DNA of 64,000 nucleotides from an uncultured Thermoleophilia bacterium (GTDB lineage Bacteria; Actinomycetota; Thermoleophilia; Miltoncostaeales; Miltoncostaeaceae): NCBI GenBank assembly GCA_963802325.1, contig CAWDII010000003.1, forward strand, positions 36,496-100,495, in the 5' to 3' direction. A program made the translations under genes and the position numbers. Shown here piece by piece: positions 42,458 to 48,767 of the stretch; the stretch's first letter is position 1, and each line of letters begins with the position of its first letter. The notes below the pieces were generated by a model. It had not been told where the DNA came from. It made no database searches and saw nothing but the letters and a program-made list of their open reading frames with translations.

Positions 42458-42967
42458 TCAGCAGACCACCTGGATGTGGAAGGAGCTGTTCACCGGGGTG
42501 CCGGCGCCGTTCATGGTGCGCACCACGAGCTGCGTGCGGGCGGCGTCGGTGGTGTCGAGTGCGATCCGCAGGGTCACGATGTCGGCGACCGGCGTCACGT
42601 CGGCCGACGTCGTGCCGGTCCACGAGCAGGCGCTGATGTTGCGGTCGAACTTGACCCGGTAGTTGCCGTCGTCGATCCGCTGGGACGAGACCGCGCCTCG
42701 GGTGCGGACGAGGTTCGACCCGACGGCCCCGCTGCTCACGACGAACAGGGGGATCTGCGGGGCGAGGGCGTCGAGGCGGGCGTTCGCCTCGTTGCTGCGC
42801 TTGACCGCCGCCTGGGAGATCTTCTGATTGACCTTGAGCTGTTGCGCGCTGACCTCGACCGGGCGCGCCGCGCTGGCATCACCGGTCGAGCCCTCCACCG
42901 CGATCACCGCACCGAGGCCGATGGCGACCCCCGCCGTGACTCCGACCCACCAACGTCCCTTGAGCAT
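42458..42967 (-). CDS. Secreted hypothetical protein with one copy of the QLxxNQxISQAAVxR module
   Basis: GGAGGA RBS, signal/TM segment, SAQQLKVNQKISQAAVKRSN, beta-rich C-terminus. Confidence 0.75.
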   Translation of the reverse strand: MLKGRWWVGVTAGVAIGLGAVIAVEGSTGDASAARPVEVSAQQLKVNQKISQAAVKRSNEANARLDALAPQIPLFVVSSGAVGSNLVRTRGAVSSQRIDDGNYRVKFDRNISACSWTGTTSADVTPVADIVTLRIALDTTDAARTQLVVRTMNGAGTPVNSSFHIQVVC

Positions 42968-44914: not shown

Positions 44915-45483
44915 CTACTCCAGGGCGGCCACGACCCGTTCGCGCGCGCGGTGCAGCCGGCTCATGACGGTGCCCTCCTTGGTGCCGAGGGATTGGCGGC
45001 CTCCCGGTAGGAGAGGCCGACGACGTCGACCGCCACGATCACGTCGCGGAAGTCGTCGGGCAGGGCGGCGATGGCGCCGTAGACCGCCGCCGCCTCGAAG
45101 ACCGCCGCCGGCTCGCCCGAGGCGCGCCCGGCCAGGTGGTCGTCGAGGGGGAGCGCGTCCGGCGGCGGGCGCCGGGCGGCGGCGCGGCGCCCGTCGAGGA
45201 ACGTGTTGCGCAGCGCGCCCATCAGATAGCCGAGGTCGCCCTCCCGGCGCAGGATGCGCGGCCTGCCGAGCACGCGGGCGTAGGTCTCCTGGACCAGGTC
45301 CTCCGCGTCCTCGCGGTCGCCACAGAGCGCCCACGCCGCACGGTAGAGATGATCGAGGTGGTCTCCGAGGCCGTCCCGGTCGAGGGCGCGGGTCGGCGCC
45401 CGGGACGCGTCGTCCTGCCGGCGGGGTGGCTCCGCGATGCCGCCGTGCGCGGTGGCGGTCGAGCCCTCGGGTTCGTCTTTCAT
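44915..45483 (-). pseudogene. ECF sigma factor, frameshifted near 44995
   Basis: LYRAAWAL, DAEDLVQETY, GLSYREAA, then GTVMSRLHRAR in a shifted frame. Confidence 0.85.
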
Positions 45484-45585
45484 CCGCCGACCATCGTCCC
45501 CCGTACGTGCCCCGGAGGATAGGGGCGGTCGGGGTGAGCGTCGACCTGGTCGAAAGTCGGTGATGCCGGGGTGCATAATCACGGC

Positions 45586-45996
45586 GTGGCCACGACACCC
45601 CGCTCGATGATGGACCCGGCGGCGCTCGATGCCGTTGACGCCGGCTGCCCCGCGCGCCGCCTGCTGGGACGCATGGCCGAGCGCTGGACGGGCCTCGTGC
45701 TGGTCGCGCTCGCCGACGGCCGGGACAAGCGCTTCTCCGAGGTGGCCCGCGAGATCGGCAACATCTCGCCGAAGATGCTGGCCCAGACTCTCCGGGCCCT
45801 GGAGCGCGACGGGTTCGTGGACCGCCGGGTGAACGGCGGCTCCCCCTCGCGGCCGCTCTACCGGGTCAGCGCGATGGGGGCCGAGATGATGGGCCCCCTG
45901 GGGGCCCTCTCGGGGTGGGCGTACGCGAACCGCGAGGCCCTGGACGGTGCCCGCGAGCGGTACGACGCCGCGACCACCGGAGTCGCCGTCGAGTAG
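45586..45996 (+). CDS. HxlR-family winged-helix regulator
   Basis: CPARRLL, RW, RFSE, ISPKMLAQTLRALERDG. Confidence 0.9.
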   Translation: MATTPRSMMDPAALDAVDAGCPARRLLGRMAERWTGLVLVALADGRDKRFSEVAREIGNISPKMLAQTLRALERDGFVDRRVNGGSPSRPLYRVSAMGAEMMGPLGALSGWAYANREALDGARERYDAATTGVAVE

Positions 45997-46108: not shown

Positions 46109-46798
46109 GTGGACGACCGACAGATGGACCGGGACGAGCTGGCCGCGCGCCTCGACGCGCAGGAGCGCGCGCGCGAGATCGTCGGCCGGGCGGCCGTGCC
46201 GGCGCCCCCCCACCTGCGCGCCCGTATCGAGCAGATGCGGGCGCCGGCCCGGCCCCACCGCGCCCCCCGCCGCCGCGGGCTCTTCGCCGGCGGGCTGGCC
46301 GCCGCGGCGATCGCCCTGGCGGCGTTGCTGGTGCTCTTCCTGCCGGGCGGGGCGGCCGGACCCGGCCTGGCCGAGGCGGCCGAGCTCGCCCGGCTGCCGG
46401 CCACCGCGGCCGCGCCGCCGACCCGACCTGGCTCCCCCGCGCTGCTCGCCGCCGACCTCGAGGGCCTCGCCTTCCCCGACTGGGCCGCCGAGTTCGGCTG
46501 GACTGCGACCGGGATCAGGGACGACGAGATCGGCGGCCGCCGGGCGGTCACGGTCTTCTACGCCAAGGAGGGACGCCGGCTGGCGTACACGATCGTCTCC
46601 GGCGACGGCCTCGCGGTGCCCGGCGAGCCGGCGGTCACGCGCGACGAGGTCGAGTTCCGGTTCGTCCAGACCGACGCGGGCGAGATCCTCACCTGGGAGC
46701 GCCGAGGCCACACCTGCGTGATCAGCGCGCCCGGCACACCCCGGCCGACGCTCCTCGACCTGGCCGCCTGGCGCGGCGCCGGAGCGCTCGGCTTCTGA
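46109..46798 (+). CDS. Putative anti-sigma factor (single TM)
   Basis: APPHLRARI cytoplasmic part, TM helix, extracytoplasmic beta domain; near an ECF sigma gene. Confidence 0.65.
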   Translation: MDDRQMDRDELAARLDAQERAREIVGRAAVPAPPHLRARIEQMRAPARPHRAPRRRGLFAGGLAAAAIALAALLVLFLPGGAAGPGLAEAAELARLPATAAAPPTRPGSPALLAADLEGLAFPDWAAEFGWTATGIRDDEIGGRRAVTVFYAKEGRRLAYTIVSGDGLAVPGEPAVTRDEVEFRFVQTDAGEILTWERRGHTCVISAPGTPRPTLLDLAAWRGAGALGF

Positions 46799-46807
46799 AC
46801 CGGGACG

Positions 46808-48622
46808 CTAGCGCCGCCCGGCGGTCATGGGCATCAGGTCGGCGGCTCCGATCGAGCCCGGCTGGAAGTCGCTCGTCGAGAGCCCGAACATGAGACGCCG
46901 CCGCAGCGCCTCGGCCCGGCGCACCGCCCCCTGGGAGATCTCCTGGGAGATCAGGAGCTGAGCCGCCGTGGGGCGCACCGGGGCCGAGCGCCCGCGGCGT
47001 GCCGCGATCACGGTCACGCTCGGTGGAACGGGCGTCCCGGCCGCGCCCGCCGCGCCGAGGGTCACTCCTGCGGCCAGCTTCTCGGCGCCGATCGAGCCGT
47101 CGAGGATGTCGCCTCCGGTCAGGCCGGAGCGCAGCCGCGCCTCCAGCGCGTCGATCCGGCGCACGGCCGACTGGGCGATGCGCTGCGTGCGCAGCATCTC
47201 GCGCGCGCTCACCCGGATGGGCCCCCGGGTCGCGGCCACCCCGGCGCCGGTGCCGATCGAGCGCACGGCCGCGGCCGCCGCACCCGTGGCCTCGGGGGTC
47301 CCGGCCGGTCGCAGCGCGGGGTCGAACGCGGCGGCGCCGAGCCCGCCGTGGCGCAGGTCGCCGGCCCTGATCCCCGCGTCCAGCCAGGCCTCGATGGCCG
47401 TCACGCGCCGGACCGCCGCCTGGGCGATGCGGCGGTTCACCAGCATCTGCGCGCCGTCGAGGCGCACGGGGCGCACCACGTCGAAGTAGCTCAGCCCGAG
47501 GGGCTGGCCCGCGTACCCCGAGCGGCGGGTGTACGGCCACACGCGCCACGCGTAGCGGACGCCGAACCGCAGGCCCGCGGGTCGCGCCCGGGTCGCGCGG
47601 GGGAAGGTGGAGGAGATCTTGGTCAGCGAGTCGCCGCGGACCTGGAAGACCTGCAGGTTGTAGAGACTCGCCCCCCGCGCGGCACGCCAGGACAGGAGGG
47701 GCCGCGCCCGCGTGACGGTGGCGCCGGCCCTCGGGCGGAGCCGCGAGGGCGTCCGCACGCGAGGCGTGGTGCGCAGCGCCGCGGGCACCGCCTGGACGAC
47801 GGTGAACGGGTCGGCGACGCTGAACGGGCCGCTCCGGCCGGCGGCCCCGGCCTGGCGCACCTGGAACGCGTACGCGCCCGGCAGCAGCGGACCCAGGGTG
47901 ACCGAGGTGGCCAGGGTGTCGCCCTGGGACACCACCGCACCCTGCGAGAGCACCTGCCAGGTGAACAGGGCGCCCGGCTCCCCGCCGGTCCATCCGAAGG
48001 CGGGGCGGTTGCCGCGCACCGGCTGGGGCGGGCGCCCCACGATGACGGGCGCCGCCGGGCCCACGGTGTAGGCGACGCTCCGCGTCGCCGCGTTGCCGGC
48101 CGCGTCGGTGGCGGCGACGCCGAAGGTGGCCGGCCCCGCGACCCCCGTCGGCAGCAGGGCGGCGTCGGGCAGCGTGCCCACGCAGGAGACCGCCCCGGCG
48201 CAGGAGTAGTCGACCTCCACGGGCTGGCCCGGGAGGTAGAGCGTCCCCTCCACCGGCTGGCGGACCGAGATCGTGGGAGGGGTCACGTTGACGCGGACGA
48301 CGCGCCGCGCCTTCGCCCCTCCCGGCGACTGCGCCGCGTCGAGGTTGTAGGTGCCGCCGGCCAGGCCCGAGAGGCTGATCCGCAGGGGCGAGGCGCCCGA
48401 CCCCTTGCGGGTGGTACCCGAGAGCGTCCAGTTCAGGACGGCGCCGCGCGCGCTGCCGGTGATCGTGTAGGCCGGCGTCGGTGCGGCCACGTTCCAGACC
48501 GTGGCGTCCGATCCGGAGATCCGCGGCGCCGCCGGCGCCGCCGAAGAGGTCGCCGCCGCCGACGCGAGCACCAGACCCGCCGCGAGCGGCACGAGCCGGT
48601 GGAGCAGGGATCCCGGGCGCAT
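46808..48622 (-). CDS. Secreted Ig/FN3-like protein with three C-terminal repeats of an unassigned module
   Basis: Signal peptide, ATDAAGN Ig-like motif, three ...RIAQAAVRR...G..D...G.[LI]GA repeats. Confidence 0.75.
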   Translation of the reverse strand: MRPGSLLHRLVPLAAGLVLASAAATSSAAPAAPRISGSDATVWNVAAPTPAYTITGSARGAVLNWTLSGTTRKGSGASPLRISLSGLAGGTYNLDAAQSPGGAKARRVVRVNVTPPTISVRQPVEGTLYLPGQPVEVDYSCAGAVSCVGTLPDAALLPTGVAGPATFGVAATDAAGNAATRSVAYTVGPAAPVIVGRPPQPVRGNRPAFGWTGGEPGALFTWQVLSQGAVVSQGDTLATSVTLGPLLPGAYAFQVRQAGAAGRSGPFSVADPFTVVQAVPAALRTTPRVRTPSRLRPRAGATVTRARPLLSWRAARGASLYNLQVFQVRGDSLTKISSTFPRATRARPAGLRFGVRYAWRVWPYTRRSGYAGQPLGLSYFDVVRPVRLDGAQMLVNRRIAQAAVRRVTAIEAWLDAGIRAGDLRHGGLGAAAFDPALRPAGTPEATGAAAAAVRSIGTGAGVAATRGPIRVSAREMLRTQRIAQSAVRRIDALEARLRSGLTGGDILDGSIGAEKLAAGVTLGAAGAAGTPVPPSVTVIAARRGRSAPVRPTAAQLLISQEISQGAVRRAEALRRRLMFGLSTSDFQPGSIGAADLMPMTAGRR

Positions 48623-48767
48623 CGGCTCCGAGCCTACCGGCACCCCGGGGGGCGACGGCCCGCCCGAGCGTAAGGATTGCGTTGGATCGCGCCGCCGGGG
48701 CCGGGGCCGGTGCCGGGCGGGTGGAGCTCCCTCCCTCCGGCGACGGGCGCCGGAGGGAGGGGTCGGA

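What the first reader, a model, noticed from the sequence alone, without database searches (positions are those of the whole stretch)
46830..47460. Unassigned ~45-aa module repeated three times at the C-terminus of a secreted protein
Seen: DGAQMLVNRRIAQAAVRRVTAIEAWLDAGIRAGDLRHGGLGAAAF / SAREMLRTQRIAQSAVRRIDALEARLRSGLTGGDILDGSIGAEKL / TAAQLLISQEISQGAVRRAEALRRRLMFGLSTSDFQPGSIGAADL, separated by low-complexity linkers and following Ig/FN3-like domains. I recognise no named family. Inference: three helices forming an intramolecular pseudo-trimer, serving as a lineage-specific surface anchor or assembly domain (analogous in logic to triple SLH repeats), and possibly marking an undescribed surface-display system.
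Basis: partly seen in the sequence, partly recalled or inferred. Interest (0 to 1): 0.72.

Follow-up and report, generated by a model that had tools for sequence, protein, structure and literature searches.

The report
New triple-repeat surface-anchor-like protein domain
The three repeats are real and fold together into one compact, strongly basic domain. One little-studied actinobacterial family (Miltoncostaeaceae) attaches this domain to hundreds of different secreted proteins, most likely to hold them on the cell surface. It matches no described domain family or solved structure.

Summary
The 604-aa secreted protein at window 46808-48622 (-) ends in three homologous units, each about 80 aa rather than 45.

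**Structure.** Each unit has a short lead strand, a 26-residue helix, four pentapeptide-like turns and an ordered return linker. AlphaFold2 folds the 229-aa C-terminal region as one compact domain (pLDDT 92, pTM 0.87).

**No known match.** Pfam, NCBIfam, PHROGs, PDB sequences, Foldseek and VIA-align give no significant hit.

**Distribution.**
- A profile of the module finds 631 protein clusters among 1.8 billion representatives.
- 193 of 196 held proteins carry exactly three copies, almost always at the extreme C-terminus.
- These proteins mostly have signal-peptide-like N-termini and very varied extracellular passengers (FG-GAP, PKD/Ig, TolB-like propellers, GH5/GH26, proteases, lysyl oxidase).
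- The module was found only in Miltoncostaeaceae (Thermoleophilia): in 0 of 125 genomes sampled from ten other families of the class.

**Charge.** The domain is very basic (mean net charge +13, median pI 11.7), while the passengers are acidic.

**Reading.** Best explanation, about 50%: a non-covalent cell-envelope anchor that works like triple SLH or CWB2 domains but is not homologous to them. The ligand is unknown and the function is inferred, not shown. The scan had not noted this module on other DNA.

The parts
46808..48622 (-). Coding sequence of the 604-aa secreted protein (ATG at 48622; a GTG at 48643 would give 611 aa; stop at 46808-46810).
   Evidence: ORF list and translation. The database copy P0003 is 604 aa. 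Orthologues of 593-614 aa are colinear with it.
48536..48622 (-). Signal-peptide-like N-terminus: a basic start, an A/L/V-rich hydrophobic stretch and an SSA-A type cleavage motif.
   Evidence: Read directly from the translation. It is disordered in the AF2 model, residues 1-27 with pLDDT below 50. No signal-peptide predictor was available.
47468..48535 (-). Passenger region: four tandem beta-sandwich (Ig/FN3-like) domains.
   Evidence: The AF2 full-length model is all-beta over residues 30-385. Foldseek hits Ig/FN3 arrays (Robo2, NCAM2, fibronectin, SiiE, GhpA) at E down to 1e-13. Pfam gives only a weak PKD-like hit.
46811..47497 (-). The whole C-terminal triple-repeat domain (229 aa), predicted to be one compact fold.
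   Evidence: AF2 with a 45-sequence alignment gives pLDDT 92.1 and pTM 0.87. The domain aligns colinearly with three paralogues in the same genome.
47309..47482 (-). Repeat unit 1 (lead strand, helix, four pentapeptide-like turns). Its signature is A-W-L-D-A-G ... D-L.
   Evidence: HMM domain hits, alignment A1 and position-specific consensus.
47060..47233 (-). Repeat unit 2. Its signature is A-R-L-x-x-G-L-T-G-G-D.
46811..46993 (-). Repeat unit 3 plus a tail of about 6 residues that ends the protein.
   Evidence: In 189 of 196 proteins the tail after the third unit is 15 residues or fewer.
47378..47455 (-). Helix 1 (domain residues 15-40).
   Evidence: DSSP on the AF2 model.
47126..47206 (-). 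Helix 2 (domain residues 98-124).
   Evidence: DSSP on the AF2 model.
46889..46966 (-). Helix 3 (domain residues 178-203).
   Evidence: DSSP on the AF2 model.
42458..42967 (-). Small 169-aa secreted protein carrying one helix half-module directly after its signal peptide (helix at about 42767-42868), followed by a beta domain of about 100 aa with two conserved Cys.
   Evidence: HMM hit to model positions 1-33. The family has 118 clusters, including Miltoncostaea marina, aligned. It is syntenic with orthologues of the main gene.

Best explanation
The C-terminal 229 residues form an undescribed, autonomous domain built from three homologous units of about 80 aa.

**Anatomy of each unit**
- A short lead strand (V-x-L-S/T).
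- A 26-residue helix with the motif Q-L-L-I-N-Q-R-I-x-Q-A-A-V-R-R-x-N-A-L.
- Four pentapeptide-like turns, with G-L-T-G-G-D-L-x-D-G-x-I as the core of the pattern.
- An extended, ordered return linker.

**Fold.** The three units pack into one single-chain pseudo-trimer. The three helices form the core, most probably as a parallel three-helix bundle. The turns form a small cap, and the linkers run back along the bundle.

**Likely function.** The domain is very basic. On my heptad reading, each helix presents a conserved, outward-facing R-Q-R-N stripe. Miltoncostaeaceae attach the domain to many unrelated secreted proteins. I think it most likely holds these proteins non-covalently on the cell envelope by binding an anionic wall or surface polymer. 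That is the logic of triple SLH and triple CWB2 domains, reached without sequence homology.

**Shown:** the repeats, the single-domain prediction, the distribution, the charge and the lack of any known match.

**Inferred:** the parallel helix orientation, the exposed stripe, the ligand and the anchoring function.

**Confidence.** About 0.85 that this is a real, autonomous pseudo-trimeric domain family. About 0.5 for the whole statement including the anchoring function.
For: **Repeat and fold**
- Each protein has three units, and the units are position-specific. Unit 1 of one protein resembles unit 1 of another more than it resembles its own units 2 and 3: 47-52% against 39-46% identity. So the triple is an old, fixed unit.
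- AF2 gives pLDDT 92.1 and pTM 0.87, with three 26-27-residue helices and confident linkers. The same secondary structure appears in the full-length model.
- After each helix, isolated beta bridges fall on hydrophobic residues five apart, at module columns 38, 43, 48 and 53.
- The best whole-domain structural neighbour is gp41-5, a single-chain bundle (Z 7.1). From my own knowledge, not from the tool output, gp41-5 is built on three parallel helices joined by return segments. A designed antiparallel three-helix bundle scores Z 4.4.

**Behaves like a mobile surface module**
- 631 representative clusters match.
- 193 of 196 held proteins have exactly three copies, and 189 of them end within 15 aa of the last copy.
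- 69 of 91 complete proteins pass a crude signal-peptide test.
- Passengers include FG-GAP, PKD, PD40, Big_5, TIG, OmpA, GH5, GH26, S8, trypsin, lysyl oxidase, polysaccharide lyase, VWA and GDSL.
- There are 3-11 such proteins per genome, often in tandem.
- Rare proteins place the triple right after the signal peptide instead, and signal-peptide-plus-domain-only proteins exist. So it is a folded module, not a cleaved C-terminal sorting tag. From my own knowledge, SLH domains likewise occur at either end of proteins.

**Charge**
- The domain has mean net charge +12.9 and median pI 11.7, and 94% of copies have pI above 9. Passengers have mean charge -5.5 and pI 5.3.
- R18, R25 and R26 are 89-95% conserved; Q21 is 86% and N28 is 66% conserved. 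With a/d positions at L13, N16, A/S20, A23, A/L/V27, L30 and L34, these residues fall at the exposed f and b positions (the register is my inference).

**Extracellular setting.** A Cys upstream of unit 1 and a Cys in the unit-1 turns occur together in 104 proteins, are both absent in 71, and occur singly in only 7. This suggests a disulfide.

**Lineage**
- The module was found only in Miltoncostaeaceae.
- SLH motifs were not found in 18 of 18 genomes of this genus, but are abundant (about 60 motifs each) in two genomes of another family of the class.
Against: - There is no direct evidence for binding to anything. The ligand is unknown.
- TagF-type teichoic acid polymerase was not found in the genus, and CsaB pyruvyl transferase does not track the domain. 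So neither of the two textbook anionic ligands is indicated.
- I could not read the model's coordinates. The parallel orientation, the cap geometry and the exposed stripe are therefore inferences from secondary structure, linker lengths and heptad logic.
- High-GC genomes are Arg-rich in general, although the acidic passengers argue against a pure composition effect.
- A sortase is present in the genome, so another anchoring route exists.
- Three members carry an OmpA-type peptidoglycan-binding passenger, which would be partly redundant with a wall anchor.
- Signal-peptide-plus-domain-only proteins hint that the domain may do something in its own right.
- The SLH/module complementarity is weak, because most families of the class sampled have neither.
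Confidence: 0.5

Rival explanations
1. It is a substrate-targeting, lectin-like or CBM-like domain. It would bind an external anionic polymer (for example algal or biofilm polysaccharide, or extracellular DNA) and concentrate enzymes and adhesins on that material, rather than on the cell's own wall.
For: Some passengers are glycoside hydrolases and polysaccharide lyases: GH5, GH26, GH115_C, PL. The strong positive charge would suit acidic polysaccharides. Relatives come from marine and sediment settings where such polymers abound (labels; Miltoncostaea isolates). Three symmetric conserved polar stripes resemble multivalent lectins.
Against: Most passengers are not carbohydrate-active: FG-GAP, PKD/Ig, PD40, proteases, lysyl oxidase, SpoIID. 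One and the same module on so many unrelated passengers is more typical of anchors than of CBMs. No CBM family or fold match was found.
Confidence: 0.15
2. It is a protein-protein docking or oligomerisation device. The helical bundle would dock onto another protein (for example the small P0002-type proteins that carry the same helix, or an S-layer-like lattice), or would drive higher-order assembly, in the way dockerin binds cohesin.
For: The same helix motif occurs once, right after the signal peptide, in a conserved family of small secreted proteins found in the same genomes. That family lies 4 kb from the main gene and stays syntenic with it. Domain genes also form tandem arrays.
Against: No scaffold protein with multiple receptor modules was found, and no conserved neighbour beyond shared synteny. 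The triple already forms a closed bundle in the model.
Confidence: 0.15
3. It is an export or sorting signal. A dedicated secretion or attachment machine would recognise it and perhaps remove it, as with the T9SS C-terminal domain or LPXTG and PEP-CTERM tags.
For: It is strictly C-terminal in about 96% of proteins, with a tail of 15 or fewer residues. It is lineage-restricted and sits on many unrelated secreted proteins.
Against: Several proteins carry it at the N-terminus, after the signal peptide. It has no C-terminal transmembrane helix or basic tail motif. At 225 aa it is large for a tag, well folded and possibly disulfide-stapled. No co-located machinery was found. All members already have Sec-type N-termini.
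Confidence: 0.05
4. It is only a rigid stalk or spacer, or a folding aid, with no binding function.
For: A three-helix bundle plus cap would be a stiff rod of about 6 nm. Trimeric coiled-coil stalks are common in surface proteins.
Against: A spacer at the extreme C-terminus with nothing beyond it spaces nothing. The very high conservation of exposed Arg/Gln/Asn residues and the extreme charge are not needed for a spacer.
Confidence: 0.05

Closest known systems
Triple S-layer-homology (SLH) domains, Pfam PF00395 (e.g. Bacillus anthracis Sap, Paenibacillus alvei SpaA)
   Same: - Both have three tandem units of about 55-80 aa that fold into one pseudo-trimer, each unit giving one helix to a three-helix bundle core (PMC6081394; model).
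- Both have conserved Arg residues and are attached to many unrelated secreted proteins.
- Both can sit at either end of the protein (for SLH this is from my own knowledge).
- In this class the two have a complementary genomic distribution.
   Different: - There is no sequence similarity: no Pfam hit even at E up to 1.
- The TRAE and GIIxG motifs are absent.
- Each unit has one long helix plus pentapeptide-like turns and a long return linker, rather than a helix-loop-helix 'prong'.
- No SLH structure appears among the best structural matches.
- The CsaB pyruvyl transferase that accompanies SLH does not track this domain.
Triple CWB2 cell-wall-binding repeats, Pfam PF04122 (Clostridioides difficile Cwp proteins)
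   Same: [quoted passage not shown] That unit anchors varied surface proteins non-covalently to an anionic wall polymer, PS-II (PMC6081394; PMC4973711 listed).
   Different: CWB2 units are alpha/beta modules of about 90 aa with a different fold around the bundle. There is no sequence or fold match here. CWB2 belongs to Firmicutes, not Actinomycetota.
gp41-5, a single-chain helical bundle (PDB 3o3x)
   Same: It is the best whole-domain structural neighbour: Z 7.1, 108 residues aligned, spanning model residues 6-203. From my own knowledge, it has three parallel helices in one chain, joined by segments that run back along the bundle.
   Different: It is an engineered viral construct whose return segments are helices. 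A Z of 7 is within the range of chance for helical bundles (note). It has no beta-turn cap and no homology to this domain.
Pentapeptide repeats (PF00805) and N-at-d layers of trimeric autotransporter stalks
   Same: After each helix, hydrophobic residues recur every fifth position for four turns. On my heptad reading, the helix has a conserved Asn at a core d position, as in parallel trimeric coiled coils of adhesin stalks (from my own knowledge).
   Different: There is no Pfam pentapeptide hit. Each unit has only four turns, probably shared between three segments rather than forming a four-sided solenoid. The chain is a single polypeptide, not a homotrimer.

Membership tests
SLH domain (PF00395) | Match to the SLH sequence profile. 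| tested here: not met
   Pfam scan of the whole protein at E up to 1 shows no SLH hit. None was reported among 73 family members (only the 25 most frequent of 47 families are listed). A six-frame SLH search of the genome finds nothing (the genome is rated 67% complete).
SLH domain (PF00395) | Conserved TRAE and GIIxG motifs. | tested here: not met
   The consensus of 579 modules contains neither motif. Its conserved motif is Q-L-L-I-N-Q-R-I-x-Q-A-A-V-R-R.
SLH domain (PF00395) | Three tandem units forming one pseudo-trimer around a parallel three-helix bundle. | tested here: inconclusive
   Three units and one compact domain with three long helices are predicted. The parallel orientation is inferred from the linker lengths and the gp41-5 match, because the coordinates could not be read. 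No SLH chain is among the top 50 VIA matches.
SLH domain (PF00395) | Binds pyruvylated secondary cell wall polymer. | not testable with these tools
   Only indirect evidence is available: CsaB (PF04230) was found in 6 of 18 genomes of the genus and does not track the domain.
CWB2 (PF04122) | Match to the CWB2 profile or fold. | tested here: not met
   No Pfam hit. There is no CWB2 chain among the Foldseek or VIA matches, though the fold part is only inconclusive.
Pentapeptide repeat (PF00805) | Tandem A(D/N)LXX repeats recognised by the profile and forming a four-sided beta-helix. | tested here: not met
   No Pfam hit at E up to 1. Each unit has only four period-5 turns.
C-terminal sorting tags (LPXTG, PEP-CTERM, GlyGly-CTERM and the like) | A short motif followed by a transmembrane helix and a basic tail at the extreme C-terminus. 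| tested here: not met
   The protein ends in a polar, turn-rich segment with no hydrophobic stretch. NCBIfam has no hit. A crude LPXTG screen of the genome finds no convincing substrate.
T9SS C-terminal domain (Por_Secre_tail) | A beta-sandwich of about 80 aa at the C-terminus, matched by the profile. | tested here: not met
   No Pfam or NCBIfam hit. The domain is 225 aa and largely helical.
New family proposed here (Miltoncostaeaceae triple helix-turn domain) | Three units with the Q-L-L-I-N-Q-R-I-x-Q-A-A-V-R-R helix motif, position-specific signatures, at the end of a secreted protein. | tested here: met

The most novel reading that the evidence does not exclude
This is a third, independently evolved triple-repeat cell-wall anchor built on a parallel three-helix bundle, after SLH and CWB2. 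It would serve as the main surface-display device of Miltoncostaeaceae, which seem to lack SLH, and would recognise a so far unknown anionic envelope polymer through three conserved Arg-Gln-Arg-Asn stripes. The same helix would be reused in homotrimeric small proteins and in a shorter helix-only triple.
Probability: 0.4. Interest if true: 0.7.

Novelty: new variant of a known kind. Interest (0 to 1): 0.5.

Why it matters
If the anchoring reading holds, it has four consequences.
- It would give a handle on the almost unstudied cell envelope of Thermoleophilia: which proteins are displayed, and on what polymer.
- It would be a striking case of convergence. Three unrelated triple repeats (SLH, CWB2 and this one) would all solve surface anchoring with a three-helix bundle.
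- In practice, it defines a new domain family of more than 600 protein clusters that current annotation leaves blank. Defining it would immediately improve annotation of secreted proteins in these genomes.
- It offers a small, self-contained, confidently predicted fold with no PDB counterpart for structural work, or as a display tag.

Tried and rejected
**Searches that found no match for the domain**
- Pfam, NCBIfam and PHROGs.
- A PDB sequence profile: only a chance hit at E 0.2.
- Foldseek against the PDB and against viral models: nothing.
- VIA-align against 48,161 chains: best Z 7.1, within the chance range for helical bundles.
- The ESM Atlas: only weak hits at or below 0.83 to unnamed, partly viral clusters, below the level worth trusting.

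**Search for a partner gene.** I clustered all ORFs of 110 aa or more in 77 related loci. The large clusters were antisense or shifted-frame shadows of the domain genes themselves. The real recurrent neighbours all came from one syntenic group.

**Search for the ligand by co-distribution**
- CsaB does not track the domain.
- TagF was not found in the genus.
- LCP ligases are present but are uninformative.

**Other leads**
- Sortase is present. A crude LPXTG screen found no convincing substrates.
The planned test of homotrimerisation of the small helix protein was therefore not run, and nothing can be said either way.
- The literature search found nothing on this domain or on the Miltoncostaea envelope.
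- The earlier-findings look-up by sequence found no look-alike in other windows.
Full report
**1. What is there**

The ORF at window 46808..48643 (-) encodes a protein of 611 aa from a GTG start, or 604 aa from the ATG at 48622 as in the database copy P0003.

The N-terminus looks like a Sec signal peptide. The full-length AlphaFold2 model (pLDDT 81.6) shows four beta-sandwich domains over residues 30-385. These hit Ig/FN3 arrays in the PDB at E down to 1e-13.

**2. The repeat is real and bigger than described**

An HMM built from the four copies in the window finds three more proteins in the same 3.5-Mb genome. Each has exactly three copies at its C-terminus, with E = 4e-44 to 2e-51.

Aligning the four C-terminal regions shows that the 'linkers' also carry conserved stretches. 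The repeat period is 80-82 aa.

Each unit consists of:
- a lead strand (V-x-L-S/T);
- a helix with the motif Q-L-L-I-N-Q-R-I-x-Q-A-A-V-R-R-x-N-A-L;
- four turns with a hydrophobic residue every fifth position, plus conserved G37, D42 and G46;
- a return linker.

Units are position-specific. Unit 1 carries A-W-L-D-A-G, unit 2 carries G-L-T-G-G-D, and unit 3 carries its own tail. Same-position units of different proteins are more alike (47-52% identity) than different units of one protein (42-48%). The triplication therefore predates the spread of the domain, and the three positions are not interchangeable.

**3. Fold**

With a 45-sequence alignment, AlphaFold2 folds the 229-aa region as one compact domain: pLDDT 92.1, pTM 0.87, and all five models at or above 89.
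- The helices span residues 15-40, 98-124 and 178-203.
- After each helix, isolated beta bridges fall on the period-5 hydrophobic residues.
- The linkers are confident (pLDDT 82-93).

I could not read the coordinates, so the geometry is inferred. Three points suggest a parallel three-helix bundle with a cap made of the 3 x 4 turns:
- The units are equivalent to one another.
- The return segments are long (about 35 residues), which an up-down bundle would not need.
- The best structural neighbour is gp41-5, a single-chain bundle, at Z 7.1. From my own knowledge it is built on three parallel helices with return segments. A designed antiparallel three-helix bundle scores only Z 4.4.

A pair of Cys residues gives further support. 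One lies 9-14 residues before unit 1 and the other in the turns of unit 1. They occur together in 104 proteins, are both absent in 71, and occur singly in only 7. This fits a disulfide that staples the lead-in segment to the cap. It also fits an extracellular location. The window's protein belongs to the Cys-less group.

**4. No known family**

None of these searches gave a significant match:
- Pfam-A, at E up to 1 on this protein and at E up to 0.001 on 73 members;
- NCBIfam and PHROGs;
- a PDB sequence profile;
- Foldseek against the PDB and BFVD;
- VIA-align against 48,161 chains.

Atlas look-alikes are below the trustworthy range. Papers on Miltoncostaea say nothing about the domain.

**5. 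Distribution**

An exhaustive profile search of 1.84 billion representative proteins finds 631 clusters at E <= 1e-3, and 232 at E <= 1e-30.

- 193 have exactly three copies;
- 189 end within 15 residues of the third copy.

A Pfam scan of 73 complete members lists these passengers: FG-GAP, PKD, PD40, He_PIG, Big_5, TIG, OmpA, GH5, GH26, subtilase, trypsin, lysyl oxidase, polysaccharide lyase, VWA and GDSL lipase. A crude N-terminal test finds a signal-peptide-like start in 69 of 91.

Three proteins carry the triple directly after the signal peptide, with the passenger behind it. Four are just a signal peptide plus the domain.

Taxonomically the module is narrow.
- Among 41 relatives it is in 18 of 18 genomes of the window's genus and in two more genera of the family. 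It was not found in four other genera of the family, nor in 16 genomes of six other families.
- In an even sample of 151 genomes of the class it is in 12 of 26 genomes of the family (7 genera) and in 0 of 125 genomes of ten other families.
- A scan of GTDB species genomes returns only MAGs labelled Miltoncostaeaceae, Thermoleophilia or Actinomycetota, apart from one 'Dehalococcoidia' label that is probably a binning slip.
- Cultured Miltoncostaea oceani and M. marina have members.
- Genomes hold roughly 3-11 such proteins, and 23 of 78 loci hold two to five of the genes in tandem.

**6. Clues to function**

The domain is strongly basic: mean net charge +12.9, median pI 11.7, and 94% of copies above pI 9. 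The passengers of the same proteins are acidic, with mean charge -5.5 and pI 5.3.

Reading the helix as heptads puts L13, N16, A/S20, A23, A/L/V27, L30 and L34 at the a/d core positions. It puts the most conserved polar residues on the outward f and b positions: R18 (95%), Q21 (86%), R25 (89%) and N28 (66%) (the register is my inference). Exposed, near-invariant Arg/Gln/Asn on three symmetric faces of a very basic domain point to an anionic ligand rather than to folding needs.

The same motif is kept in two other settings.
- It occurs as a single helix right after the signal peptide of a conserved 169-aa protein, 4 kb away in this window at 42458-42967.
- It occurs in a shorter C-terminal triple found in relatives. 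This variant has a 45-aa period and helix-only units joined by Pro-rich linkers. Its passengers include a glycoside hydrolase, a SpoIID-like protein and an Ig protein resembling the one in this window.

The helix bundle is therefore the essential part, and the turn cap is an accessory.

**7. Comparison with known systems**

[quoted passage not shown] The present domain shares that logic but fails the membership tests for both: no profile match, no TRAE or GIIxG motifs, and no fold match.

SLH motifs were not found in any of 18 genomes of the genus. Two genomes of another family of the class have about 60 motifs each, together with strong CsaB hits. This complementarity is suggestive but weak, because most families sampled have neither.

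The ligand remains open:
- TagF was not found in the genus;
- CsaB does not track the domain;
- LCP ligases, which attach wall polymers, are present.

**8. What was not found**

There is no conserved partner or machinery gene near these genes. The apparent recurrent neighbours were either frame shadows of the domain genes or came from one syntenic group. The 'undescribed surface-display system' with its own machinery is therefore not supported. A self-sufficient binding module, as with SLH, fits better.

**9. Verdict**

The domain is a new family restricted to one actinobacterial family.

Its behaviour and charge make a non-covalent envelope anchor the best explanation, at about 0.5. The rivals are:
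- substrate targeting (0.15);
- protein docking or oligomerisation (0.15);
- sorting signal (0.05);
- inert stalk (0.05).

I class it as a new variant of a known kind: a triple-repeat surface anchor, reached by an unrelated sequence and fold. Interest is moderate. It is a clean, sizeable, unannotated domain family with a testable function, but the function is still inferred.

Noticed in passing
window 42458-42967 (-): A conserved 169-aa secreted protein family (118 clusters, including Miltoncostaea marina). It consists of a signal peptide, one lead strand plus helix half-module, and then a beta domain of about 100 aa with two near-invariant Cys, the last being the final residue. Relatives have 2-4 tandem paralogues. 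It keeps synteny with orthologues of the main gene.
   Followed up: partly
L094:753-2585 (+), L095:598-2157 (+), L096:160-1860 (+), L097:1873-3999 (-), L098:1631-3205 (-): A short variant of the C-terminal triple in related genomes. It has three helix-only units at a 45-aa period, joined by G-R-P-A-P-A-type linkers, with no turn cap. Its passengers include a glycoside hydrolase, a SpoIID-like protein, a lysyl-oxidase-like protein and an Ig protein resembling the one in this window. It was not found in the window's own genome.
   Followed up: partly
L004:1278-1553 (+) = G000:C2:441077-441352: An orphan 91-aa ORF (TTG start, no signal peptide) that holds only a unit-3-like module and its preceding linker. 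It lies between a MarR-type regulator and a typA-like gene. It may be a gene remnant or a stand-alone single unit.
   Followed up: partly
window 44915-45400 (-); also G000:C2:614800-615252 and C7:86524-86970: An ECF sigma factor gene has its region 4 split over two reading frames. Two LCP-family genes elsewhere in the genome are each split over several frames. Together with a 67% completeness estimate for a 3.5-Mb, 10-contig assembly, this suggests indel errors from long-read assembly rather than true pseudogenes.
   Followed up: partly
window 46109-46798 (+): A 229-aa ORF with one predicted membrane-spanning stretch and no Pfam match. It converges on the 3' end of the main gene with a 9-base gap, downstream of an HxlR-type regulator (45571-45996) and near the ECF sigma gene. 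It may be an anti-sigma-like protein.
   Followed up: no
proteins P0185, P0129, P0097; P0193, P0196, P0140, P0092: Rare architectures of the domain. In three proteins the triple comes directly after the signal peptide with the passenger behind it (for example a polysaccharide lyase). Four proteins consist of a signal peptide plus the domain and nothing else.
   Followed up: partly
family-wide; not in the window's own protein: A Cys 9-14 residues before unit 1 and a Cys at module column 44 of unit 1 occur together in 104 proteins, are both absent in 71, and occur singly in 7. This suggests a disulfide in a large subfamily.
   Followed up: yes
genomes G032 and G037 (another family of the class): Each has about 60 SLH motifs plus a strong CsaB hit, while the window's genus has none in 18 genomes. 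So different families of Thermoleophilia appear to use different surface-anchoring modules.
   Followed up: partly
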